Of a stretch of 64,000 nt of DNA, positions 92 to 52,519 are shown piece by piece. The DNA is from a virus. The DNA lies in the UHGV virus genome UHGV-0218015; one strand, 5' to 3'. The notes beneath the pieces were generated by a model. The model searched no databases and was not told the origin of the DNA. It was given only the letters and a program-made list of their open reading frames with translations. The position numbers and the translations under genes are program-made. How positions within the stretch are numbered: position 1 is the stretch's first letter; each line of letters starts with the position of its first letter.

Positions 92-3000
92 CTAAGTACG
101 ATCCCCTAACTGCTTCCCGTTAAGTTCTCGTTTCAGTACAGCCAGAATCCACTTCCACGCTTTACTCGTGATGTGGTACGGGTTGCGTTTCTCCATTAAG
201 AACTGACTTTCGCCGCTACGGAGTTCGAAACTCTGTGCATTGAGTTGATCTTGACGGACACTTTTCTCGTCAGTGACATCTAACGAACAGGTAAAGTTAA
301 GTTCATAACCTTCCGGATTATTGCCGGGCGGTTCTAAGACAATATAAATGTCCTGACCTACACGTAAGTCCTTTGGCGTAAGAGTAATCGCTTTACCTGT
401 ATCAGAGGCGGTCGAAAGCGCAAAAGATACGCTATCAATAGCCGATACATACGGGTCCTTCCCGGCATCACCGATAATCACTTTACCCGGCCAGTTAGAC
501 TTCACCGTCCCGGCCACTTTTGCAACGCGATACTGCTGTTTATCAGCACCTTGTGCAAAGCGTAGAATGAGTTTATGGCGATAACGACTCGCAGCAGCTT
601 TAGTCGTGCTCCACTCATTATTCCAGGAAGCGTTGAGTTCACCTTTCTTGGCCATCAAGGCACCACGAGACAGCTTACGGTCAAAGAACTGCGCAGGCAA
701 CTGACCGTCATGTGAAACAGCAACACTTCCCTGGCCGGTTGGCAGCGCGATGCTTTCTGTAACGCGGTATTTCTGACTAATCTCATAAGTCGCGGGGTCA
801 ATCACAGTCTGACTAAAATCAACGTCTTTGGTATCAGCCAAATACCCAACGGACGAATCCAGATACGATTCGAACAACGAACGTAAGTAATGGTACTTAT
901 CAATGTCGACGTTACTCGTAGCCGGATCAATCAGCGCGTGACTAATCGTTACACGGCATTTCGCAGACAGTTCTTTAAACGACAATCCCACACCGTCGCC
1001 AGTGAAATAATCCACTAAATCGAACGGGAATTGAATCTCCAGCTGTCGATGTTTAACTGTTGTCGTTCCGAACTGTGAGAACGTCAGTGCTAAACGTAAT
1101 ACCCGACTGTTTACGTTGTAACGATAGCGAATCATGCCACGAGGTGCATGGTTTGCAGAAATTTTATCTCGGCTGGCACCCCAACCTATCAAGTCGAGCG
1201 TCGCCGCGTTGGTTTCCTCACCGTTGAACAACACATCCTTAAACGTTGCGGCCACTGCCGTTTCCCCAGACTCCTCCATCACTAACGGAATATCCGTAAC
1301 AGCAGAATCTGAACGGGAACCAATCCCCAACTTACAGGTTTTGGTAGTTAGGTCAATGCGCAGATAGCGACGTTTAACGCTGCTACCTTGCGTTGACGTG
1401 CATAGAACCAAATCCGGCGCAGCAGCAAGGGCTTGCGTTCCACCAACATCGTCAACATCGAACGCAAACGAGCCTTCGAATGTCGGTGCGTTGTTTTCTT
1501 TCGGGTTAAATGGTGTAAACCAACAATACGGCGTAGCACCTTCAGGTATCACAACGTATTGAAGACTCGACTTCACGTTTTGGTTGTGTGCGTAAGTATA
1601 AAGACCACGACTGACAAGATGGAAAACATCCCCTGTAGCGGTTGCTAACGGTTTCCTAAAGATACACGCTCTTGGTTCGGCAATAGCACGGTTTAATAAC
1701 GGCAACCGTGGGTTATCCGTCAGTGACCAGTCCGCAGCGTTGAGACCGTGTGCCTTACGAATACTATTATGCTCGCTAACTTCCGCACTTTTCCCGAAAT
1801 CAAACGTGGTTTCAAATCCCACGGTTTTATTCGCGTAAGACTGACCAGGAACGATATCAACATAACCGATATATCCGCGTTCTGGATCGACCTCAAATCC
1901 TTGAACTGGTTCAGCACGCGAATACAGAGAGCCTGTGAGCATGTTAACGTACAAATAATGACGAATACCTACATGCGTTGTGACAAACTCCTGGAGAAGC
2001 TCTACACGCGTTTCAGGACCACTGAAATAAACGGGGTAGTCACCATCGTAAACTTCGAACTGTACCGCTGCAGATTTAGCCGTGTCACTACACTCTGCTT
2101 TAACAGCAATTGTGTAGTTTTCAACATCTGGAGACGTTCCATAGTTCATTAACAATGGCGACGCACCAGTAGCGCCTACAACACCATTTACATAAACGGT
2201 TATTGTCCCACCGCCAGCGGCATAAACAAACAGCCTTTTCTGACGAGCTTTGACGCGCGTTTTAGCCAGTACCGATACAACGGACTGAACGCCCATCTGG
2301 GTGGCGCTTTTACCTACCGGAACTGACTGAAACCCCATTGTTGGGGGATCAACAATTCCATCCCAACTAATCCCGGTACCTTTACTCACCTTACCCGTAG
2401 GCCAAGTCAGCTCAAGTTGGTTGTTCGGTGAGAACCAGTTAAACATCGGAGTGGTTTGCAGGTCAATCGCACCGGTAACGGTACTGTCACCTTTCGTGCC
2501 GTCCAGCAAATAGAAATATTTCAAATCCTGAACGGAGATTGCCGTACCCTGGCTATTAAATCGCCAGTCTGCGCCTTTTACAGCAGCGAAATCCGTGACT
2601 GTTCCTTCTTTCGCATTTGCAATTGCCGCAGCGACCACACTTAAACGTGCCGAAAGCTCTTTTAGGATGTTCGGTACCACTGCACGGTTTTCAACCAAAC
2701 CGTTCTGGTTAGTTGCATAACGACCAATACCGTAAACAGATTGAGAAGCTTTATAAATACCTAACTCCGACCAATCGTGATGATGGCCCACATCTGCTAG
2801 ACCGCTAACCGCCTCAGTTAACTTGGTTGACAACGGTTTGTCAAGATCTGCGGTATTATCCGCTTGCCCTAACCCCAGGTCAGCTTTCGTGATTGTCCTG
2901 GAGCCGTCATTCATTGGCTTACCGTTAATCATGGTCGTTTTAGCCACATACCCCGATAGGTCGGTCGCATATGGCGCTAACGAAGCCGGAGTTGCTGCAA

Positions 3001-35829: not shown

Positions 35830-36756
35830 ATGTATTTGTACAAAAGTAAAAAAGTAAAAGGTATTAAAGACTGCCTTAGACAAATGGGGAGTCAGCATCT
35901 AGAAAATGTCATGGAAGAAAATCAAACAAAAGAAAATCCCGTCTCGAAATGGATAAAAAAGAATCGTAAGCATTTAACTAATGCCTTTATACCCTACGAC
36001 GCTGAGTTAGGTCTCAAAGATCCCCGTTCCCTTCACGCTCAAACATTGGCAATTGGATGGCTATACGGGGGTGCTTCCTTAATATCCAATCGAGCACTTA
36101 GAGAACTTGTTTTCGAGACTGAGATACCCACTAAATTCCCTGAAGAGTGGTTAGACTTTATACCTACTTGGACTGTAGCAATCGATGTAGGTAAAGAAGA
36201 TGAGACTTTCTTTCTCGGTTATCGAAAAAATAGGAATAGAAGGTTTATTATAATTGCTACAAATACTGATTACGGGTTAACAGAAGGCGTTACCACAATC
36301 GCCACCTGCTCGTTAGAGATATGTAGTGTTGGAAACGGGCTTGTTGAAATCGATTATACAACTGACGTACAGACCGAACAAGAGAAGACGTTATGGCTAT
36401 CACTGGCCAAAACCGCCATATCGTTGATATTTCTCTGTACGCTAATCCCGCCCAATCTCAGAGGGTCTTTCAATGACATTAAGTTCAAAGAAATCAAAAA
36501 GAATGGTAGTATAAGTCACGAAATCAAACCTCGTGAACGTGACGTTAAAATAGACATCACGCCAGGACAAGTGAAATATCTAAAGGGATTTAACACCGAC
36601 TTGAAAACCATGGAAGGTATCAAACACGCCAAGGCCGCACATATTCGTCGCGCGCACTGGCGCAGATATTGGGTCGGTCCAAGAGATGGGGAAAGGAAGA
36701 GAAAACTTTACTGGATTCCGCCTACATTTGTCCGTGGCTACGTACCCCACAATTAA
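35830..36756 (+). CDS. hypothetical protein (308 aa), paralog A with C-terminal HIRRAHWRR motif
   Basis: C-terminus AKAAHIRRAHWRRYWVGP...WIPPTFVRGY and internal LAIGWLYGGASLIS are shared with the next gene. Confidence 0.5.
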   Translation: MYLYKSKKVKGIKDCLRQMGSQHLENVMEENQTKENPVSKWIKKNRKHLTNAFIPYDAELGLKDPRSLHAQTLAIGWLYGGASLISNRALRELVFETEIPTKFPEEWLDFIPTWTVAIDVGKEDETFFLGYRKNRNRRFIIIATNTDYGLTEGVTTIATCSLEICSVGNGLVEIDYTTDVQTEQEKTLWLSLAKTAISLIFLCTLIPPNLRGSFNDIKFKEIKKNGSISHEIKPRERDVKIDITPGQVKYLKGFNTDLKTMEGIKHAKAAHIRRAHWRRYWVGPRDGERKRKLYWIPPTFVRGYVPHN

Positions 36757-36781
36757 GCTAAAAGTGTTTAGGAGCATTAAA

Positions 36782-37681
36782 ATGATAGCGAATAATAGAC
36801 TTTACGGGAAAGCGCTAAGACGCATGAGCGAACAGATAGAAAAAGCGCACCAAACAATTCACGGATTAGACCAGTGCCGTTTTATTCGGTTCATTAACGA
36901 GCATAAACGACAAATACCCGTAACGTTTATGCCAGTTAAAGATCCGACCTATCGAGAGTATGGCGTTACGGAACAGATTCCCAGACTGATTAAACAGTCC
37001 CTGGGCCTAGGATGGCAATACGCTGCTGTTGAAATCATCTCAGACGAAGAACTGATGGCGCTCTTAGCAAAAACTGAGAGACTAAAAAATATCCCGTACT
37101 TCTGGATAGAAACCATCCCTTCATTTACTTTCTCGGTTACCGTAAATCTCGACGAAAGCCCAATCACGTTATTTATCGGAAGACGTCTTTACGAAGGCGA
37201 AGAAGTTCTCTTCGTAATGTCATGCGAAGAACGTGAAGAATCGGTATACATGGAGTTTGAGATTTACAAAATCGATAAAAGCGAAGATGATTTCGTCGTG
37301 CTAAAGCCGCTTCTTACTTCGGTTAAGGAGAATCAACGACTACTCGACGCCGTCTACATCGGGCTATATCTTTCGTCACGAATTAAACGTACTGAACGTG
37401 AAAAGAAAGAATTTCGTGGAAGAACGATTCGTTATGTTCCTGATACAGAGATTCGCCCACGTAGTGAAGCAGTCGTTTTAGACGTAAGTCCGGTACAATG
37501 GGAAGATATAGAGCAGCAACGCAAGGAAGGACACGAAGTTTGTTTGGCAATTTATTGCGCAGCACATATCCGCCGTGCTCATTGGAAGCGTGTATGGTGT
37601 GGTAAAATGTCAGAAATGCGCTGGCGCGAATGGCGATGGATAGCGCCAAGCTACATCTCTGGATTTTATCGTGGGAAATAA
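36782..37681 (+). CDS. hypothetical protein (about 299 aa), paralog B with C-terminal HIRRAHWKR motif
   Basis: C-terminus AAHIRRAHWKRVWCG...WIAPSYISGFY; start taken at the first ATG after the upstream stop (track ORF begins at 36686, overlapping the previous gene). Confidence 0.5.
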   Translation: MIANNRLYGKALRRMSEQIEKAHQTIHGLDQCRFIRFINEHKRQIPVTFMPVKDPTYREYGVTEQIPRLIKQSLGLGWQYAAVEIISDEELMALLAKTERLKNIPYFWIETIPSFTFSVTVNLDESPITLFIGRRLYEGEEVLFVMSCEEREESVYMEFEIYKIDKSEDDFVVLKPLLTSVKENQRLLDAVYIGLYLSSRIKRTEREKKEFRGRTIRYVPDTEIRPRSEAVVLDVSPVQWEDIEQQRKEGHEVCLAIYCAAHIRRAHWKRVWCGKMSEMRWREWRWIAPSYISGFYRGK

Positions 37682-46748: not shown

Positions 46749-46780
46749 TGCCCTACTCCTTCATAGGAGTAGGGTATTTT
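46749..46780 (+). terminator. rho-independent terminator (CCCTACTCC hairpin family)
   Basis: GCCCTACTCCTTCATAGGAGTAGGG followed by TATTTTCATTTTT. Confidence 0.7.
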
Positions 46781-46806: not shown

Positions 46807-47175
46807 ATGCAAGCTCAGTTTTTTAGTACACCCAAAGGTTTCGGTTTTAAATTCCCTGAATTTGTTTTACCAAAACAAGTTATTGAAGTACCCTTTCCCA
46901 GTTATGTGCGATTAGGACTACGCACCGTACTTGCCAACTTTTCGGGAAAGACTGTGGAAATTCGTGTGTGGGAAGGTTCGGGAAGTCCTGGTGGTGTTAT
47001 GTTTGTTGATTACAATTGGATTAAAAGAACAGGTTTTCCGCTTGTACGAATAGTTGAGGCTGCTCGTGGATTACCCTTCCACGCTCTACTGGGAGATATA
47101 ACGTTACCTGAAGCTGGCGATTATTCTTCTCCTGCTGATGACGAATACCAAATTCATCTTGTTTTGTTGAAATGA
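46807..47175 (+). CDS. hypothetical protein (122 aa)
   Basis: ORF with CTAAAGGAG RBS. Confidence 0.5.
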   Translation: MQAQFFSTPKGFGFKFPEFVLPKQVIEVPFPSYVRLGLRTVLANFSGKTVEIRVWEGSGSPGGVMFVDYNWIKRTGFPLVRIVEAARGLPFHALLGDITLPEAGDYSSPADDEYQIHLVLLK

Positions 47176-47235
47176 TTTTTACAGTTGGGAACAGACTTAT
47201 GTCTCCCAAGACTGCGTTTAAGCGGAGAAACAATT

Positions 47236-47700
47236 ATGCGTGGATATATTCTCGATCTTGCAATTTCTGTAGAAGAACTTGTGGAAAAACTCGGCGGTAC
47301 CGGTCATGGGCTTCATGGGAAGACCAAAAGCATAGCTCATCTTCTCGAACCAAAATACGAACGGAAACTCCACATGATTGCTTCCGTTCGCAACAAAGCC
47401 GCTCACAGGAGAATTCTTCCCGAACGCATAGACGTCTATGAACAAGCTGTGGAAGAAACGAGGCTCTATTTAGAAGAACTGGTTAGGGAAGAAGAGCGGA
47501 AACGTCGTTGTGAAGAGGAAATAAATCCCAGCTGTCTGGAACGCGAAGCGATGTGGAGAGAACGGGCAGACGAGGCCAAACGACGTAACGAAGAGAAAAG
47601 ATGGGACGATATGAGTGTAATAGAAAAGATAGGTTGGGGCGCCGGTATTGCAATCGTGGGAGCTGCGGTTGCGTACCTTAAAATAAAGTCTCGTGACTAA
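47236..47700 (+). CDS. HEPN-like (Rx4H) helical protein with C-terminal transmembrane anchor
   Basis: Motif IASVRNKAAHRR (R-x4-H) within a predicted all-helical domain; charged linker; C-terminal hydrophobic IGWGAGIAIVGAAVAYL; ATG at 47236 with GGAG RBS (track ORF begins at 47185). Confidence 0.3.
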   Translation: MRGYILDLAISVEELVEKLGGTGHGLHGKTKSIAHLLEPKYERKLHMIASVRNKAAHRRILPERIDVYEQAVEETRLYLEELVREEERKRRCEEEINPSCLEREAMWRERADEAKRRNEEKRWDDMSVIEKIGWGAGIAIVGAAVAYLKIKSRD

Positions 47701-47714
47701 ATCGGGTATCGGAA

Positions 47715-48260
47715 ATGAAACAAATACAGTTAACTGATCACGTTAATGCGTTTAAACACTTTCTGGATAACGCGGGTATAAAACCCGGCGAACAGACAGA
47801 CGCATGGACTGCACGTGTTTATGGAAGTATTGGCAAAGTCTGTGAATCCACGACATCACACGACGGGTTGTTTGTTGCTAAAGCGGTGGGTAACGCCTTG
47901 TGGGATATTGCTGCTCTAGTTTACGTGATGAATAACGGGGATTTACGTCCCCTTGAAAAATCACTACACCGACTACTAGCCATTAAGAAATGGAAAAACG
48001 AACATCCTGAGTCAATCGCGGTTACGTTGATGCCAGAAGCGGTACTTGCTATCAAAGCGGTACGAAGTTGTACCGCTCGCGCACAAATGGAGCGTCGTCT
48101 ACATCTCGCGACACTCTTTTATCAATTGGCCAGAATTGTAAAGATGAACGGCCTAATCTTCGACCGGGTTCTACAGAACGGACGTATAAGTTGGACAGAA
48201 GAACTAAGTAGTTCTCCGTTCTATACAAAACTAAAACTTAAAGACATTTTGAAGGATTAA
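47715..48260 (+). CDS. hypothetical protein (181 aa)
   Basis: Complete ORF; predicted helical. Confidence 0.5.
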   Translation: MKQIQLTDHVNAFKHFLDNAGIKPGEQTDAWTARVYGSIGKVCESTTSHDGLFVAKAVGNALWDIAALVYVMNNGDLRPLEKSLHRLLAIKKWKNEHPESIAVTLMPEAVLAIKAVRSCTARAQMERRLHLATLFYQLARIVKMNGLIFDRVLQNGRISWTEELSSSPFYTKLKLKDILKD

Positions 48261-48261
48261 C

Positions 48262-48570
48262 ATGGAAAACTATTCGGGTTGGGCAATTTCGCAGTGCATT
48301 GGCTATTCTTTACGTTCTTTAGTGCGTACACTTTATAACAAAAACTCAGGTGAAAGCATTACACCACAGTTACTGGGCAAATTGGAAGTTGAAGTTAACC
48401 ACAAATTAAAACAGTTACTCGACAGCCACGTAAGAACAATGCGTTGGGAGTTCTTGCTACGTGGTAAGAAGCCTTTAATTACTGTTGTAGCAGAAGGCAG
48501 TGAAATCGTACTGCAGTCCAACGCAGACCTGTTTGAAATTTTAACTGAACTCGAAAAGGACAAAATCTGA
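48262..48570 (+). CDS. hypothetical protein (102 aa)
   Basis: Complete ORF; starts 2 nt after the previous stop. Confidence 0.45.
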   Translation: MENYSGWAISQCIGYSLRSLVRTLYNKNSGESITPQLLGKLEVEVNHKLKQLLDSHVRTMRWEFLLRGKKPLITVVAEGSEIVLQSNADLFEILTELEKDKI

Positions 48571-48887
48571 TGACTGTGAACGACAATATAAAGAAAAAGA
48601 TTGACGAAATCATAAGCGTCAGTTTAGATAGGATCGAATTAATTCCCGAAACTAAGGAAATCAAATACTACGTTCCTGCAGACGAACTATTTCCAGGTCT
48701 TCTTAGAATCTCACCAAAAAAGGTTGAAGAGGCTAAACGGCAATTCGAAGTTCGTGGCCTTAAGGTTGAGATTGTTAACAAAAAACATTTCCATGTAACG
48801 TATAGCCAGGAAAACATTATTTTTAGTCCTGAGCAAGCGCAACGTAATTTAGACATTTTAACGAAACGTATGGAGAATAACAAATGA
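48570..48887 (+). CDS. hypothetical protein (105 aa)
   Basis: Complete ORF overlapping its neighbours at both ends. Confidence 0.45.
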
Positions 48888-49918
48888 AACAGTATTTAGC
48901 GTTAATGCAAGACATTCTAGATAACGGTGTTGTCAAGAAAGACCGTACAGGCGTAGGGACACTTTCTGTATTTGGTCGCCAACTACGTTTCGACCTAAAA
49001 GAAGGTTTCCCATTAGTTACTACGAAAAAGGTTCACCTGAAAAGTATCATTCATGAACTGCTGTGGTTCTTAAATGGTGACACTAACGTGAAGTACCTGC
49101 AAGAGAACGGGGTAAAAATTTGGAACGAATGGAGTGACGAGGAGGGGAACTTAGGACCAGTTTATGGTAAACAATGGCGTGAATGGCGCGACTGTAAAGT
49201 TGTGGAGTGTCATGACGTAAGACGTACACAACAACTAATGCAGCGGGGTTACAAGTATATTGGGAATATGAAGGAAGACGGTACGACGTATTTGGTCTAT
49301 GAAAAAGCACATGACCAGATCAGCAAAGTTATCCAGCAACTTCGTGAAGACCCTGACTCCCGTCGTATTATTGTTAGTGCCTGGAATGTAGGTGACCTGG
49401 ACGATATGGCACTTAACCCATGCCACAACTATTTCCAATTCTACACAACGGAAATGACGTTGCTTGAACGACTGGATTGGTACGAAGTAAACGAACCGGA
49501 AAAATTTGCGAGCGCACCGCTTATTAATCACGAAGATATTGATGATGAAGAGCGACTTCATGAAATTTTAGATCGTGAGGACATTCCACGCCGTAAGCTT
49601 TCATGTTTTTACATGATGCGGAGCAACGACGTCGCATTAGGAAAACCGTTCAACATCGCGTCATACGCTCTGTTAACTCATATGGTTGCCCAACAAGTGA
49701 ATATGGTTCCCGATGAGTTAGTTTATAGTGGAGTCGATGTGCATTTATATCTGAACCACCTCGATCAAATAAAACTCCAGCTGACTCGTGAGCCGTACCC
49801 GTTACCTAAATTGGTTATTAAACGTAAACCCGAATCTATCTTCGACTACAAATACGAGGACTTTGAAGTAGTCGGTTACCAATCTCACCCACACATCGCC
49901 ATGCCTGTTGCGGTGTAA
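48884..49918 (+). CDS. thyA: thymidylate synthase (ThyA family) with two insertions
   Basis: Near-collinear with E. coli ThyA as I recall it (MKQYL.LMQ..LD.G..K.DRTG.GTLS.FG...[27 protein letters not shown]; [23 protein letters not shown]; [11 protein letters not shown]; [15 protein letters not shown]), with extra segments of roughly 35 and 45 aa. Confidence 0.95.
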
Positions 49919-49947
49919 ACTACCACTTAACTAAAAGGAACGATAAA

Positions 49948-50394
49948 ATGTCTAAAACTCATGTTAACTATAACATCGTAGTAGAAGAATTATCAAAAGG
50001 TTTAACTGAACTGGATTCTAAAGATAATCCGTTTACCGATCGTTACGGAGCCAAAGCTTTATCTGAGTTCCGTACTATCCGCTACGGTACAGGTAGACAG
50101 ACAGGACTTACTGACTTTGCTGTCGAGTTAGCTAAGAACCATAAAGGGAAAGTATTGTTCGTTAATCCAAAAGGGTTCTTAGAGGACGATGTGCTATTCC
50201 GTTTGGGTCTCGAAGACTTGCCGGAGAATATCACGCAAATCATCGGTTACCAAATGGGTACAGAAAAAGAAAAATACAGTCTTGTTATTGTAGATAACGC
50301 TGGGGTTTTCTTTAGCATTTTCCGTTACATGAAGTTCTTTCGCTTACTGGCAAACTCAGTAACTAAAGACGTTGTAATACATTTAATGGGTTAA
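49948..50394 (+). CDS. hypothetical protein (148 aa)
   Basis: ORF with AAAGGAACG RBS; not recognisable as DHFR. Confidence 0.5.
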   Translation: MSKTHVNYNIVVEELSKGLTELDSKDNPFTDRYGAKALSEFRTIRYGTGRQTGLTDFAVELAKNHKGKVLFVNPKGFLEDDVLFRLGLEDLPENITQIIGYQMGTEKEKYSLVIVDNAGVFFSIFRYMKFFRLLANSVTKDVVIHLMG

Positions 50395-50411
50395 TCAGTG
50401 GGGTTAGTTCT

Positions 50412-50582
50412 ATGGAAGAATTAGAGGCGGTTCCCTGTTACATTCCTAGAAGACGTGTTATAAAAGAATGTTACATCGATCGTATTTTGATCTCTCGTAT
50501 CAAGAAAGGTCCAAGAAAACATCAAAACAAGAAGGTATTTATTTATAAATACTTCGAAAAGGTTATAATCCGACCTTACTGA
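50412..50582 (+). CDS. small basic protein (56 aa), KGPRK paralog A
   Basis: MEELEAVPCYIPRRRVIKECYIDRILISRIKKGPRKHQNKKVFIYKYFEKVIIRPY; shares the KGP(R/G)K basic/aromatic motif with the ORFs at 51022 and 51192. Confidence 0.4.
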   Translation: MEELEAVPCYIPRRRVIKECYIDRILISRIKKGPRKHQNKKVFIYKYFEKVIIRPY

Positions 50583-50610
50583 TTAAATTAACTCAGGGAG
50601 TAAATTCATT

Positions 50611-51000
50611 ATGTCAATCGATATCTACGTTTATTCATACTCAAAATCCGCTGTAAAAGAATCCGTGCGTCAGGCTTGGGACAACCAACAATTTGTCGAT
50701 CATGTTGACGACATACACGGCGAAATATCTGATCAGGGTGAGTTGGTGTGGACAGAAAGGCTGTCGTTTTGTTGGAACGCGTTTAACAAACTTAAATCCG
50801 AATTCAATATAACGACGGTATGCGGTAGCAGTGAGTTCGCAATCAATAAAGAACAACTCACCGCTTTTAAACAATATATTGAAGAATTGGATCAGCTCAT
50901 TCCACGCGATGAATGGAAACAGCGCGCGTTGGAAGAATTGCAAAAACTAATCGAAACTTTCGATTTTGAAAGCAATTATCTCACTATCCACACCGATTAA
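50611..51000 (+). CDS. hypothetical protein (129 aa)
   Basis: ORF with GGGAG RBS. Confidence 0.5.
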   Translation: MSIDIYVYSYSKSAVKESVRQAWDNQQFVDHVDDIHGEISDQGELVWTERLSFCWNAFNKLKSEFNITTVCGSSEFAINKEQLTAFKQYIEELDQLIPRDEWKQRALEELQKLIETFDFESNYLTIHTD

Positions 51001-51021
51001 GGTAACCTGTGGGGAATTGAT

Positions 51022-51195
51022 ATGTTGGACGATGTTCTTAATTTCACGATAACGTATTTCGAGCCGAAGAAGTTCCGTACCATTGTTACACGTTGGTGCA
51101 AAGGGCCACGTAAAGGACGTAAACGTTTCCAAGTAATTCAATTTTCTTATTCCAAGTTCCTTGAAGCTAACCCATTCGAGAAGGAGGAACAATGA
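51022..51195 (+). CDS. small basic protein (57 aa), KGPRK paralog B
   Basis: ...TIVTRWCKGPRKGRKRFQVIQFSYSKF...; stop overlaps the next start (ATGA), suggesting translational coupling. Confidence 0.4.
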   Translation: MLDDVLNFTITYFEPKKFRTIVTRWCKGPRKGRKRFQVIQFSYSKFLEANPFEKEEQ

Positions 51196-51374
51196 AGAAG
51201 CCATATTTTCATAACCTCAGATTCTTTACAGGTACTCTATATTTTATTGGCTACAACCGCGTACGTAAGGGACCTGGTAAATCGAAAGTACGCACTGTGC
51301 AGTATAAAAAGGCAATGACAGCGACAGTTCCATTACGGATGGGCCTGCTTCTGTCTCACATTCGCCATCGTTAA
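51192..51374 (+). CDS. small basic protein (60 aa), KGPGK paralog C
   Basis: ...FIGYNRVRKGPGKSKVRTVQYKKAMTA...; AAGGAGG RBS. Confidence 0.45.
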   Translation: MKKPYFHNLRFFTGTLYFIGYNRVRKGPGKSKVRTVQYKKAMTATVPLRMGLLLSHIRHR

Positions 51375-51416
51375 ATCAAAACTGCTAACACCTTTGTAAG
51401 AAATTTGGGAACTAAA

Positions 51417-51560
51417 ATGACTGAAGAAGTTAAAGTAGAAACCGTTAAAGAAACTGACAAATTTGCAATCCCTGGCTTAGACCCAGAAGCAACCGTAGAG
51501 AAGGGTGCTGACCCAACTACGGAAGACGATAACTGCTCAGGCGGGGCTTGCAAAATTTAA
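51417..51560 (+). CDS. possible small acidic peptide (47 aa) ending CSGGACKI
   Basis: ATG after a GGGAACTAAA RBS-like sequence; followed by a terminator hairpin; too short to be sure it is coding. Confidence 0.3.
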   Translation: MTEEVKVETVKETDKFAIPGLDPEATVEKGADPTTEDDNCSGGACKI

Positions 51561-51565
51561 CAGTT

Positions 51566-51610
51566 CACGGGGTGCTTATGTAGCACCCCTAATCCTTATT
51601 CTTTTTTGTT
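51566..51610 (+). terminator. rho-independent terminator
   Basis: Hairpin GGGGTGCTTATGTAGCACCCC followed by a T-rich run. Confidence 0.65.
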
Positions 51611-51617
51611 TAATCTA

Positions 51618-52463
51618 ATGGAGTTTAAAATGGGCGAACGTTTTGACATCAACACTATTTACAACATCGTGGTTAATCCTGGTCAACACCTGGAAGAAGT
51701 TAACGCGCAACTGCGCGCTCTGAATGAGAATGCAGTACAGTTCGATGCTATTTACACAATTGGTGTAAACCCTGGTACCAACCGTATTCGTGTAGAAGGT
51801 AAACGCCACACCGGTAATCAAGAACTGGATATTGAAACGATTGTAGCGCCTATTAAGCTTACCGATGCCGTTTATAACGGTACGGTAATGCATACAGAAT
51901 CTGTTCTAGTTTGCACGATCGCAAAATGTGTAAAACTCGTTAAAGGTTGGTCTAAAGAACGTGGGATTCTCGATAACGGCAAACTGGAAACCCAAATCAC
52001 GAAGTTCTTTGAAGAGTTAGGTGAAATTGCGGCGGGCATCAGTAAAAACAAACCTGAAATGATCATGGATGGTATCGGCGATGCGTTGGTGGTTCTGGTA
52101 AACATCATCGAATTAGGGGATGCGAATTCTGGTTACCTTACAGTGGCAGAAGACTGCATCGAGTCTGGTCTACGCTTAGACGTGGAAGATGTAGCTGAAG
52201 TTGAAGAAAATTTAAACAACGCTGGATACCCACATCAACAATACCTTCACGCTATTGAAAGTTTTGCCACAACCTTTATGGAAGGTAAAGATCATGGTTT
52301 CGATTTCGTTAGCCTGGGTTTAGCCCATCTTGCTCGTATCGCCTTGTATTATAAATTGGATATTCGCCATTGCTTCTCTTTAGCCTGGCATGAAATCAAA
52401 GACCGTAAAGGTTACCTGAACGCCGACGGCATCTTTGTAAAAGAAGCAGACTTGGCGAAATAA
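51618..52463 (+). CDS. MazG-like nucleoside triphosphate pyrophosphohydrolase with ~110-aa N-terminal extension
   Basis: MazG-type helical core LETQITKFFEELGEIAAGISKN...IMDGIGDALVVLVNIIELGD (EExxE ... DxxGD); start at ATG 51618 or 51630 (track ORF begins at a TTG at 51606). Confidence 0.65.
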   Translation: MEFKMGERFDINTIYNIVVNPGQHLEEVNAQLRALNENAVQFDAIYTIGVNPGTNRIRVEGKRHTGNQELDIETIVAPIKLTDAVYNGTVMHTESVLVCTIAKCVKLVKGWSKERGILDNGKLETQITKFFEELGEIAAGISKNKPEMIMDGIGDALVVLVNIIELGDANSGYLTVAEDCIESGLRLDVEDVAEVEENLNNAGYPHQQYLHAIESFATTFMEGKDHGFDFVSLGLAHLARIALYYKLDIRHCFSLAWHEIKDRKGYLNADGIFVKEADLAK

Positions 52464-52469
52464 ATAAAA

Positions 52470-52519
52470 GCACCTACCTCCCTTCGGAGGTAGGTTAACT
52501 TTCTTATTTTTTTCTTTTT
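52470..52519. terminator. bidirectional terminator
   Basis: Hairpin CACCTACCTCCCTTCGGAGGTAGGT followed by a long T-run; separates the plus-strand block from the minus-strand virion genes. Confidence 0.7.

What the first reader, a model, noticed from the sequence alone, without database searches (positions are those of the whole stretch)
50412..51374. Three small basic paralogous proteins sharing a KGP(R/G)K motif in a low-density stretch
Between 50.4 and 51.4 kb lie three 56-60-aa ORFs, two of them below the ORF-track length cutoff, with a common ..R.KGP(R/G)K..K..(V)...Y.KF pattern; two are linked by an ATGA stop-start overlap. Small, very basic, duplicated proteins suggest nucleic-acid or ribosome binding. 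The opposite-strand track ORFs here (50641..50943, 50947..51204) lack such support.
Basis: seen in the sequence. Interest (0 to 1): 0.5.

Follow-up and report, generated by a model that had tools for sequence, protein, structure and literature searches.

The report
Tandem small basic jumbo-phage proteins
Three real neighbouring genes encode roughly 57-residue, strongly basic proteins that share a KGPxK loop; they form an undescribed family found only in two groups of jumbo phages of E. coli/Salmonella, gene finders usually miss or mis-call them, and they probably bind nucleic acid, though their function is untested.

Summary
ORF1 (50412-50582), ORF2 (51022-51195) and ORF3 (51192-51374) exist as described. 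KGP[RG]K occurs only three times in the six-frame translation of the 64-kb window, once in each ORF (expected 0.09).

All three are conserved in about 30 related loci from 221-230 kb phage contigs, probably the proposed genus 'Bapsvirus'. The + frame is the only frame open in every relative. dN/dS is 0.4-0.5 overall and 0.17-0.33 in the cores. Synonymous changes inside the motif show selection on the protein.

The opposite-strand ORFs are exact-antisense shadows. The one over ORF2 is broken in 8 of 18 relatives.

ORF2 and ORF3 are always present and translationally coupled. ORF1 and the 129-aa gene are optional cassettes. Phage Goslar has three tandem homologs, also after thyA.

An exhaustive search of 1.84 billion proteins finds no other relatives. 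There is no Pfam, PHROG, NCBIfam or PDB match. A low-confidence model gives three strands with the motif as a basic loop.

Function is inferred only: nucleic-acid or polyanion binding is most likely, and a host-protein-targeting accessory role is the main rival. This is a modestly interesting orphan family.

The parts
50412..50582 (+). ORF1: 56-aa basic protein (pI 9.95), motif KKGPRKH. It is an optional copy, present in only some related genomes, and is closest to Goslar gp137.
   Evidence: It is 56 aa in all 12 loci that carry it and is the only frame open in all of them, with dN/dS 0.46. hhalign to Goslar gp137 gives 95% probability, E 2.8e-8. It is absent from 12+ related loci.
50398..50403 (+). 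Shine-Dalgarno-like GTGGGG, 8 nt upstream of the ORF1 ATG.
   Evidence: Read from the sequence. A purine-rich equivalent (GCGAGG, ATGAGG, GTGGGGG) sits at the same place in relatives.
50505..50519 (+). ORF1 motif codons for KGPRK (AAA GGT CCA AGA AAA).
50611..51000 (+). 129-aa acidic protein gene (pI 4.55). It is not a family member. It is an optional cassette inserted exactly at the ORF2 start codon, and it explains the minus-strand shadow ORF 50641-50943.
   Evidence: All 20 homolog clusters are 129 aa at 84-100% identity, and the identical sequence is on 78 contigs. dN/dS is 0.20. The junction was analysed. It occurs with and without ORF1.
51009..51014 (+). Shine-Dalgarno-like GTGGGG, 7 nt upstream of the ORF2 ATG.
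51022..51195 (+). ORF2: 57-aa basic protein (pI 9.73), motif CKGPRKGRKRF. It is a core member present in every related locus, and is closest to Goslar gp139.
   Evidence: It was found in all 29-30 related loci as 55-, 56-, 57- or 65-aa alleles, one of them with an N-terminal frameshift. It is the only frame open in all relatives. dN/dS is 0.39-0.43 overall and 0.27 in the core. hhalign to Goslar gp139 gives 91%, E 1.1e-6. The AF2 model has strands 3-12, 17-25 and 34-42 with the motif in loop 26-33, at pLDDT 62.
51100..51114 (+). ORF2 motif codons for KGPRK (AAA GGG CCA CGT AAA).
51181..51188 (+). Strong Shine-Dalgarno AAGGAGGA for ORF3, inside the 3' end of ORF2.
51192..51374 (+). ORF3: 60-aa very basic protein (pI 11.67), motif IGY..VRKGPGKSK. 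It is a core member, translationally coupled to ORF2 through the ATGA overlap, and its C-terminal tail is variable.
   Evidence: It is present in all related loci in three sequence types, with lengths 56-74 aa or 120-121 aa when fused in frame to the next ORF. It is the only frame open in all relatives. dN/dS is 0.44-0.48 overall, 0.17 in the type A core and 0.4-0.84 in the tails.
51267..51281 (+). ORF3 motif codons for KGPGK (AAG GGA CCT GGT AAA).
51417..51560 (+). 47-aa acidic ORF (pI 4.16) ending in DDNCSGGACKI. It is context, not a family member. It lies in the same reading frame as ORF3 and is naturally fused to ORF3 in some relatives.
   Evidence: It matches phrog_14561 at E 1.5e-15. dN/dS is 0.16. 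Fusion proteins P0038, P0039, P0042 and others are 120-121 aa.
51569..51589 (+). Stable hairpin (8-bp GC-rich stem) followed by a T-run about 10 nt downstream. It is a probable terminator or attenuator closing the small-gene block before mazG.
   Evidence: Folding gives -16.3 kcal/mol, z = -4.0, with 0 of 200 shuffles as stable.
50947..51204 (-). 85-aa minus-strand ORF: the exact-antisense shadow of ORF2, not a gene.
   Evidence: The antisense frame carries stops in 8 of 18 unique relatives. dN/dS in that frame is 0.84 against 0.39 for the + frame. Its coding score is +0.057 against +0.210 for ORF2. Gene callers nevertheless chose it on 5 of 6 window-like contigs.
50641..50943 (-). 100-aa minus-strand ORF: the exact-antisense shadow inside the 129-aa gene, not a gene.
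   Evidence: It is codon-for-codon antisense to the 129-aa ORF (coordinates). The + strand gene is length-conserved in 20 clusters. Its coding score is +0.033 against +0.231.

Best explanation
Shown. ORF1, ORF2 and ORF3 are real protein-coding genes. They belong to an undescribed, lineage-restricted family of 48-75-residue basic proteins. The conserved core is a hydrophobic strand, a turn, a second strand, the loop [KR]-K-G-P-x-K-[GSH]-[RK]-x-[RK] and a third strand, with a conserved proline about 18 residues further on.

The genes lie in tandem in an accessory and nucleotide-metabolism block downstream of thyA. This is true in the window's jumbo phage (probably 'Bapsvirus') and in Goslarvirus. 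ORF2 and ORF3 form an obligatory pair that is always adjacent and always overlapping. ORF1 is an older paralog of the Goslar gp137 type and behaves as an optional cassette.

Inferred. ORF2 and ORF3 are made in coupled amounts by termination-reinitiation and act together. Each protein presents a Gly-Pro-tipped, lysine- and arginine-rich beta-hairpin loop that clamps a polyanion, most likely DNA or RNA. The small hydrophobic sheet would mediate pairing between paralogs. The fast-evolving flanks and tails tune an accessory, host-facing or phage-nucleus-related role that is not essential in every genome. I put the 'real paralogous coding genes' part at about 0.95 and the nucleic-acid-binding mechanism at about 0.4.
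For: Coding and family:
- Orthologs of all three ORFs are found in 68 protein clusters from 221-230 kb contigs.
- The + frame is the only frame open in every relative, and it has the lowest dN/dS.
- The codon-usage score is best in the + frame for all three.
- Shine-Dalgarno-like elements are conserved.
- Synonymous codon variation inside the invariant motif, among orthologs and between paralogs, shows protein-level selection.
- A mosaic ORF2 allele keeps only the strand pattern and RWRKGPHKGRKRF.

Paralogy:
- The motif is unique to the three ORFs in the window.
- Single-subfamily HMMs cross-detect each other, and hhalign supports the relationships.

Synteny:
- Goslar and a second 237-kb contig carry three tandem members directly after thyA.

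Pairing:
- ORF2 and ORF3 co-occur in all loci and overlap by ATGA or by 29 nt, in two linked allele pairs.

Shape and charge:
- pI is 9.7-11.7.
- The AF2 topology is three strands with the motif as the beta2-beta3 loop.

Accessory character:
- dN/dS is 0.4-0.5, against 0.05-0.2 for neighbouring genes.
- ORF1 is present or absent in different genomes.
- ORF2 carries a natural N-terminal frameshift in one assembly.
Against: There is no direct evidence of nucleic-acid binding.
- No match to any DNA- or RNA-binding family in Pfam, NCBIfam, PHROGs or PDB sequences.
- The AF2 model is low confidence (pLDDT 62), and the ORF3-47aa fusion model is disordered (pLDDT 42).
- Foldseek finds nothing significant in PDB or BFVD.
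- Homology of ORF3 to ORF1 and ORF2 rests mainly on the motif.
- A basic loop could equally bind an acidic protein surface or a membrane.
- The related loci were fetched through the proteins themselves, so presence/absence frequencies are biased.
- Expression has not been observed.
Confidence: 0.4

Rival explanations
1. They are small accessory, host-takeover or anti-defence proteins that bind a host protein (or a defence-system component) rather than nucleic acid. On this view the basic loop docks onto an acidic protein surface, and the rapid divergence and copy-number variation reflect an arms race.
For: - dN/dS is elevated (0.4-0.5) relative to neighbours (0.05-0.2), and the tails are very variable.
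- ORF1 is present or absent in different genomes, and cassettes turn over at the locus.
- The family is confined to two phage genera that share hosts (Salmonella, E. coli, Shigella).
- The proteins are small, tandem and of unknown function, sitting in a variable island bounded by terminators.
Against: - No match to any PADLOC, PHROG or Pfam family. PADLOC was not searched, and no anti-defence library is available.
- The one invariant feature is a lysine- and arginine-rich loop, which is more typical of polyanion binding.
- ORF2 and ORF3 are never absent, which is unlike typical anti-defence genes.
Confidence: 0.3
2. They are packaged internal proteins (like T4 IPI-III, or the inner-body and ejected proteins of chimalliviruses). 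They would neutralise DNA charge in the capsid or be injected with the genome to act first in the cell.
For: - They are small and highly basic, and sit in a hyperplastic locus that recalls the T-even internal-protein locus (my own knowledge of T4, not tested here).
- Chimalliviruses inject many proteins (preprint 10.64898/2026.04.21.720040).
Against: - Goslar gp137 and gp139 are not among the abundant virion proteins listed in the Goslar virion mass-spectrometry study, and they do not appear in its held supplements. This is weak evidence, because such small basic proteins yield few tryptic peptides.
- The genes sit with thyA and mazG, not with head genes.
- No shared N-terminal targeting or cleavage sequence is evident.
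Confidence: 0.08
3. The basic loop is a sorting or tethering signal tied to the phage nucleus. The proteins would be imported into the chimallin compartment, or act at its surface, to organise phage DNA or escort mRNA. The KGPRKGRKR segment resembles a classical eukaryotic monopartite nuclear localisation signal.
For: - The window phage carries DUF7941, which the Goslar preprint calls chimallivirus-specific.
- The only other clade with the family, Goslarvirus, forms a phage nucleus.
- The motif K-G-P-R-K-G-R-K-R fits K-[KR]-x-[KR] (read from the sequence).
Against: - No linear import signal is known for phage nuclei (my own knowledge).
- The family is absent from the syntenic loci of Seoulvirus, Derbicusvirus and Machinavirus chimalliviruses.
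- This reading rests on resemblance alone.
Confidence: 0.1
4. The small ORFs are spurious. On this view the conserved element is a DNA or RNA signal, or the minus-strand ORFs (50641-50943, 50947-51204) are the real genes.
For: - Automatic gene callers chose the antisense 85-aa ORF on 5 of 6 window-like contigs.
- PGAP annotated nothing there in NZ_CP173450.1.
- dN/dS is only moderately below 1.
Against: - The antisense frame is interrupted in 8 of 18 relatives, whereas the + frames are never interrupted.
- Wobble-position variation inside the motif occurs with unchanged amino acids.
- There is no Rfam or tRNA hit and no DNA-level repeat.
- The family is conserved at 25-40% identity into Goslar with the same architecture.
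Confidence: 0.02

Closest known systems
Escherichia phage vB_EcoM_Goslar gp139 (48 aa), the unnumbered 67-aa ORF and gp137 (65 aa), all annotated 'hypothetical protein'
   Same: This is the same family. The Goslar genes are three tandem small basic ORFs directly downstream of thyA, with KKGPRKGK, KKGCNKGKRF and KRGPGKGRQKK loops. ORF1 matches gp137 (95%, E 3e-8) and ORF2 matches gp139 (91%, E 1e-6).
   Different: Identity is only 25-40%. The flanking genes are unrelated. Goslar has no obvious ORF3-type member (IGY..RKGPGKS). The Goslar 67-aa ORF has Cys in place of Pro and a C-terminal helical extension. None has a described function.
Beta-ribbon 'arm' or loop DNA binders: HU/IHF arms (proline-tipped), Cren7/Sso7d, and the KOW motif of ribosomal protein L24 and NusG
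   Same: Working analogy only: small basic proteins in which a beta-hairpin with a Gly-, Pro- and Lys-rich tip contacts nucleic acid. The sizes are similar (about 60 aa for Cren7 and Sso7d). The resemblance is recalled from my own knowledge.
   Different: There is no sequence match to PF00216, PF00467, or the Cren7 or Sso7d families at E<=10 for any of 53 members. There is no PDB sequence hit and no significant fold match. The model has three strands, not a five-strand SH3-like barrel.
AT-hook (core R-G-R-P flanked by K/R)
   Same: A short Gly- and Pro-containing, lysine- and arginine-rich segment that could lie in a DNA groove.
   Different: The defining G-R-P core is absent from every family member. 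Here the order is K-G-P-x-K, and the motif is embedded between predicted strands rather than in a disordered region.
T4-type internal proteins (IPI, IPII, IPIII) and their hyperplastic locus
   Same: Small, very basic phage proteins encoded in a locus with cassette-like gain and loss between related phages.
   Different: There is no homology and no common N-terminal capsid-targeting sequence. The genes are not next to head genes. The proteins were not reported among abundant Goslar virion proteins.
Phage-encoded small ribosome-associated proteins (for example bS21 homologs in large phages)
   Same: Similar size and charge.
   Different: No ribosomal-protein family is hit in Pfam or NCBIfam. 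The motif is not found in ribosomal proteins in the PDB sequence search.

Membership tests
KGPxK small basic protein family of Bapsvirus-like and Goslarvirus phages (defined here) | Length 48-75 aa, pI about 10 or higher, with the [KR]-K-G-[PC]-x-K-[GSH]-[RK] loop between hydrophobic strand-like segments. | tested here: met
   All three window ORFs meet it. A family HMM retrieves only these three from the window, at E 2e-14 to 3e-30.
KGPxK small basic protein family of Bapsvirus-like and Goslarvirus phages (defined here) | Tandem, same-strand arrangement downstream of thyA. | tested here: met
   Window: thyA is at 48884-49918 and the ORFs lie at 50412-51374. About 30 related loci show the same arrangement, as do Goslar and L019.
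KGPxK small basic protein family of Bapsvirus-like and Goslarvirus phages (defined here) | Statistically supported homology between the subfamilies. | tested here: inconclusive
   Homology is good for ORF1-gp137, ORF2-gp139 and ORF1-gp139 (87-95%). It is moderate for ORF1-ORF2 (61%). It is weak for ORF3 (37% and 10%) and for the Goslar 67-aa ORF.
AT-hook | G-R-P (R-G-R-P) core tripeptide. | tested here: not met
   No member contains GRP.
KOW motif / ribosomal protein L24 / NusG (PF00467) | Match to the KOW profile. | tested here: not met
   There is no Pfam hit at E<=1 for the three ORFs, and no KOW hit at E<=10 for any of 53 members.
HU/IHF (PF00216) and Cren7/Sso7d chromatin proteins | Profile match or fold match. 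| tested here: not met
   Pfam is negative. The PDB profile search is negative. The best Foldseek PDB E-value is 1.5. The model is low confidence, so the fold test is weak.
Bacterial or phage ribosomal proteins (for example bS21, bL34-36) | Match to any ribosomal-protein model. | tested here: not met
   Pfam and NCBIfam are negative.
Packaged internal proteins (T4 IP-like or chimallivirus inner-body) | Presence in virions, with an N-terminal targeting or cleavage sequence. | tested here: inconclusive
   The proteins are not listed among abundant Goslar virion proteins and not found in the supplements. No shared N-terminal signal is seen in the alignment. Small basic proteins are easily missed by tryptic mass spectrometry.
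Nucleic-acid-binding protein (functional class) | Demonstrated binding to DNA or RNA. | not testable with these tools
   Only charge and a low-confidence topology are available.
Free-standing homing endonuclease or mobile-element ORFs | HNH, GIY-YIG or LAGLIDADG domain. | tested here: not met
   No Pfam or PHROG hit for any ORF in 50412-51374.

The most novel reading that the evidence does not exclude
The KGPxK proteins could be dedicated nucleoid or 'chromatin' and trafficking factors of nucleus-forming phages. They would be minimal basic beta-hairpin proteins whose NLS-like loop takes them into, or onto, the chimallin compartment, where ORF2/ORF3 hetero-oligomers coat or bend phage DNA or escort mRNA. 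This would be a first linear, motif-based sorting or DNA-organising system for a phage nucleus.
Probability: 0.08. Interest if true: 0.75.

Novelty: new variant of a known kind. Interest (0 to 1): 0.35.

Why it matters
If the mechanism is right, these would be among the smallest dedicated nucleic-acid-binding proteins of jumbo phages. They would use a new motif, and they occur in phages now known to be widespread in Salmonella, E. coli and Shigella isolates.

The practical result is more certain. A conserved pair of genes (plus an optional third) is systematically missed or replaced by an antisense artefact in automatic annotation of this phage group, including a RefSeq record. Small-protein content in jumbo phages is therefore under-counted, and these loci should be re-annotated.

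The locus is also a clean natural example of gene-cassette turnover at start codons. All four combinations of two optional cassettes are found in nature.

Tried and rejected
- Close or distant DNA match to deposited phages. There is none for the locus itself; only mazG aligns, at 72-76%, to Seoulvirus and Erwinia phages.
- tblastn of each peptide against 50,697 phage records. This gave only a weak Goslar hit for ORF1 (E 0.4). That hit proved real once profiles were used.
- Pfam, PHROGs, NCBIfam and PDB sequence searches, including every family member at E<=10. Nothing consistent was found.
- AlphaFold2 with a 53-sequence alignment. It gave only pLDDT 62, and Foldseek against PDB and BFVD gave no hit at E<0.09.
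- 'Rosetta stone' idea that ORF3 interacts with the acidic 47-aa protein, because the two are naturally fused in many relatives. The fusion is predicted fully disordered (pLDDT 42), so there is no support.
- Idea that an acidic partner gene is conserved next to the basic genes in both genera. The 129-aa, 98-aa and 148-aa proteins show no similarity to Goslar gp140 or gp136.
- DNA-level repeat or regulatory-site explanation for the motif. There are no DNA repeats, and wobble positions vary.
- RNA gene explanation. There is no tRNA or Rfam hit.
- phiKZ-type early promoter TATATTAC as a clue to timing. It is not enriched (3 matches against 2.1 expected) and none is near the locus.
- A fourth copy at 37078-37233 (E 0.028). 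It is out of frame inside a 331-aa gene, so it is chance.
- Small ORFs after thyA in CR5, and the syntenic loci of JN03 and Caitlin. They are not family members.
- Goslar virion proteomics. The preprint does not mention the homologs.
Full report
**1. What is in the sequence**

- ORF1, 50412-50582, 56 aa
- ORF2, 51022-51195, 57 aa
- ORF3, 51192-51374, 60 aa

ORF2 and ORF3 overlap in caATGAag. ORF1 and ORF2 are each preceded by GTGGGG 7-8 nt upstream, and ORF3 by AAGGAGGA. Their pI values are 9.95, 9.73 and 11.67.

The stretch is not gene-poor. A 129-aa acidic + strand ORF (50611-51000) lies between ORF1 and ORF2, and a 47-aa acidic ORF (51417-51560) follows ORF3. The interval from thyA (48884-49918) to mazG (51630-52463) is therefore almost entirely coding. 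The block sits between strong terminators at 46749-46776 and 52472-52495. A stable hairpin lies at 51569-51589 (-16.3 kcal/mol, z -4.0).

**2. Is the shared motif more than chance?**

KGP[RG]K occurs three times in all six frames of the 64-kb window, and those are the three ORFs. Several tests agree that this is not chance:
- The expectation is 0.089 (Poisson P = 1e-4). None of 60 simulated windows reached three. Same-strand clustering within 770 nt adds a further factor of about 1e-4.
- There is no DNA-level repeat.
- A family HMM finds only these three among 1,392 open segments. A fourth hit (E 0.028) lies out of frame inside a larger gene.
- An HMM built only from ORF1 orthologs ranks ORF2 and ORF3 second and third of 1,392. 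The ORF2-only HMM does the same for ORF1 and ORF3. A Goslar-gp139-only HMM picks ORF2 and ORF1 as its top two.

Profile-profile comparison gives:

| Pair | Probability | E-value |
|---|---|---|
| ORF1 - Goslar gp137 | 95% | 3e-8 |
| ORF2 - Goslar gp139 | 91% | 1e-6 |
| ORF1 - ORF2 | 61% | 8e-5 |
| ORF2 - ORF3 | 37% | 3.5e-4 |
| ORF1 - ORF3 | 10% | 0.003 |

ORF1 and ORF2 are therefore credible ancient paralogs whose split predates the divergence of the two phage groups. ORF3 is linked mainly through the motif and the strand pattern.

**3. Are they genes?**

A profile search of 5.8 billion proteins returned 34 and then 68 clusters. Nearly all are 48-75 aa, and many lie on 221-230 kb contigs. I fetched about 30 related loci. 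The evidence from them:
- **Frame integrity.** For each ORF the + frame is the only one of six open in every relative. On the enlarged set, ORF1 is 56 aa in 12 of 12 loci. ORF2 is 56, 57 or 65 aa in that set, and adds a 55-aa mosaic allele from L035. ORF3 is 56-74 aa, or 120-121 aa when fused to the 47-aa ORF.
- **dN/dS.** Values are 0.46, 0.43 and 0.48 overall. Cores are more constrained (ORF2 residues 10-40, 0.27; ORF3 type A core, 0.17; ORF1 C-terminal half, 0.32). Tails are relaxed (0.4-0.84). Neighbouring genes give 0.05-0.2.
- **Protein-level selection.** Inside the motif the amino acids are fixed while codons vary (GGG/GGA, CCA/CCG, CGC/CGT, AAG/AAA, TCG/TCC). The three paralogs also use different codons. 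Selection acts on the protein and not on a DNA or RNA element.
- **Codon usage.** Scoring with the window's long genes puts the + frame first of six for all three.
- **No RNA gene.** There is no tRNA or Rfam match.

**4. The opposite-strand ORFs**

Both minus-strand ORFs are codon-for-codon antisense to real + strand genes, which is the classic shadow frame.
- The frame antisense to ORF2 (window 50947-51204) has stops in 8 of 18 unique relatives, and dN/dS there is 0.84.
- The other (50641-50943) lies within the 129-aa gene. That gene is 129 aa in all 20 clusters found, and the identical sequence occurs on 78 contigs.

Even so, the gene caller used for public metagenome contigs chose the antisense 85-aa ORF, and skipped ORF1, on five of six window-like contigs. 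NCBI's PGAP left a 392-bp hole where ORF2 and ORF3 lie in the complete E. coli 98232 'plasmid' NZ_CP173450.1, which is really a 221,873-bp phage genome.

**5. Locus dynamics**

- ORF2 and ORF3 are present in every locus and always overlap. There are two linked allele pairs: a 57-aa ORF2 with type A ORF3 (ATGA overlap), and a 65-aa ORF2 with type B ORF3 (29-nt overlap). A third ORF3 type (RKGPGS) is seen in L017.
- ORF1, the 129-aa gene, the 148-aa gene and a 98-aa gene come and go. All four ORF1/129-aa combinations exist.
- The 129-aa gene with its 3' spacer is inserted precisely at the ORF2 ATG, behind the spacer that otherwise precedes ORF2.
- One NCBI assembly has an N-terminal frameshift in ORF2.
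- In the E. coli 98232 phage both flanks of ORF2 are replaced, yet the strand-turn-strand pattern and RWRKGPHKGRKRF remain.
- The window's ORF3 is the 60-aa allele. A TAA stop interrupts a frame that in other phages runs on into the 47-aa acidic ORF.

**6. How wide is the family?**

An exhaustive HMMER scan of 1.84 billion representative proteins found 12 hits at E<=0.001. Eleven are these phage proteins and one is a low-complexity repeat.

Members occur only in the window's clade and in Goslar-like phages. Goslar and a 237.5-kb IMG/VR contig each carry three tandem members immediately after thyA. The syntenic loci of Seoulvirus JN03, Derbicusvirus CR5 and Machinavirus Caitlin lack them.

The window's phage matches the description of the proposed genus 'Bapsvirus' (PMC12768965):
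- genome size of about 220-226 kb
- found in Salmonella, E. coli and Shigella assemblies
- syntenic with Seoulvirus at low identity

It also encodes DUF7941, which a Goslar structure preprint describes as chimallivirus-specific.

**7. What do they do?**

No family or fold assignment was possible. AlphaFold2 with 53 sequences gives a low-confidence model (pLDDT 62). Its topology agrees with the alternating hydrophobic pattern: strands 3-12, 17-25 and 34-42, with KGPRKGRK as the beta2-beta3 loop and a disordered tail.

The most economical reading is a minimal basic beta-hairpin module that binds a polyanion, most likely DNA or RNA. ORF2 and ORF3 would be made together by translational coupling and would act as a pair. 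This mechanism is inference from charge, predicted shape and gene arrangement, and I put it at about 0.4.

The main rival, at about 0.3, is a host-protein-directed accessory or anti-defence role. The fast evolution and cassette behaviour favour it. A packaged internal-protein role is less likely. A phage-nucleus sorting or chromatin role is the most novel reading not excluded. The idea that ORF3 works with the acidic 47-aa protein, suggested by natural fusions, gained no support from structure prediction.

**8. Verdict**

- The proposed function is plausible but untested.

This is an undescribed orphan family of small basic proteins, confined to two jumbo-phage genera and routinely missed by annotation. 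It is of modest interest unless a phage-nucleus or nucleic-acid role is demonstrated.

Noticed in passing
window 51417-51560 (+); also L002 3860-4096 (CR5_113) and L003 3938-4093 (Caitlin gp246): A 47-aa acidic ORF sits immediately upstream of mazG. Its C-terminal segment IPGLDPE..VE.G.DP..EDDNC(S/T)GGACKI is almost invariant across at least three chimallivirus genera (phrog_14561, 38753 and 24014; dN/dS 0.16). The strictly conserved Cys-x4-Cys end and the acidic leader-like N-terminus are unexplained. In several Bapsvirus genomes it is fused in frame to ORF3 (120-121 aa).
   Followed up: partly
window 47715-48260 and 48262-48570 (+): The adjacent 181-aa and 102-aa ORFs match the N-terminal (31-163) and C-terminal (201-298) parts of one 299-residue PHROG (phrog_10269). 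The mazG protein also hits that PHROG weakly. This looks like a split, or two-piece, MazG-like gene.
   Followed up: no
window 46807-52463 and loci L005-L035: The whole thyA-mazG block is a hot spot of cassette turnover. ORFs of 105, 106 or 111 aa are optional before thyA, and 98-aa and 148-aa ORFs are optional after it. thyA itself is 339-353 aa. Some genomes go directly from thyA to ORF2 (L020, L021).
   Followed up: partly
L023-L027 (locus 1837-2094, minus strand) and NZ_CP173450.1 191383-191773: Automatic annotation fails systematically here. Gene callers select the antisense 85-aa shadow ORF on window-like contigs. PGAP leaves ORF2 and ORF3 unannotated in a complete RefSeq record.
   Followed up: yes
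NZ_CP173450.1 (L035): A 221,873-bp circular 'plasmid p98232-contig_4' of a human urinary E. coli isolate (Egypt) is in fact a complete genome of this jumbo-phage group. This agrees with the report of lytic phage genomes hidden in bacterial assemblies (PMC12768965).
   Followed up: partly
P0028 (83 aa; contig of 4,823 bp, not fetched): One relative encodes a fusion of the first 27 or so residues of the 148-aa protein (MTKTHVSHNIAVEDL..DSKDNP) to full-length ORF1. This implies an in-frame deletion of most of the 148-aa gene.
   Followed up: no
L030 1890-2110 (NCBI GCA_014613015.1, Salmonella): ORF2 carries an indel after codon 6 that shifts the frame. The motif-bearing part stays open but has no ATG. 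This may be a natural knock-out, or the gene may use an alternative start.
   Followed up: partly
window 51569-51608 (+): A stable GC-rich hairpin (-16.3 kcal/mol, z -4.0) lies between the 47-aa ORF and mazG, followed about 10 nt later by TTCTTTTTTG. The terminator scan missed it. It may be an internal terminator or attenuator, or an RNA-processing site.
   Followed up: partly
window 35830-36756 and 36686-37681 (+): Two overlapping tandem genes (308 and 331 aa) share a C-terminal AAHIRRAHW(R/K)R.W.G...W(I)(P/A)P(T/S)(F/Y) segment and similar internal motifs (LGLKDP.../IGW.YGGA vs LGLGWQYAA). They appear to be another pair of tandem paralogs of unknown function.
   Followed up: no
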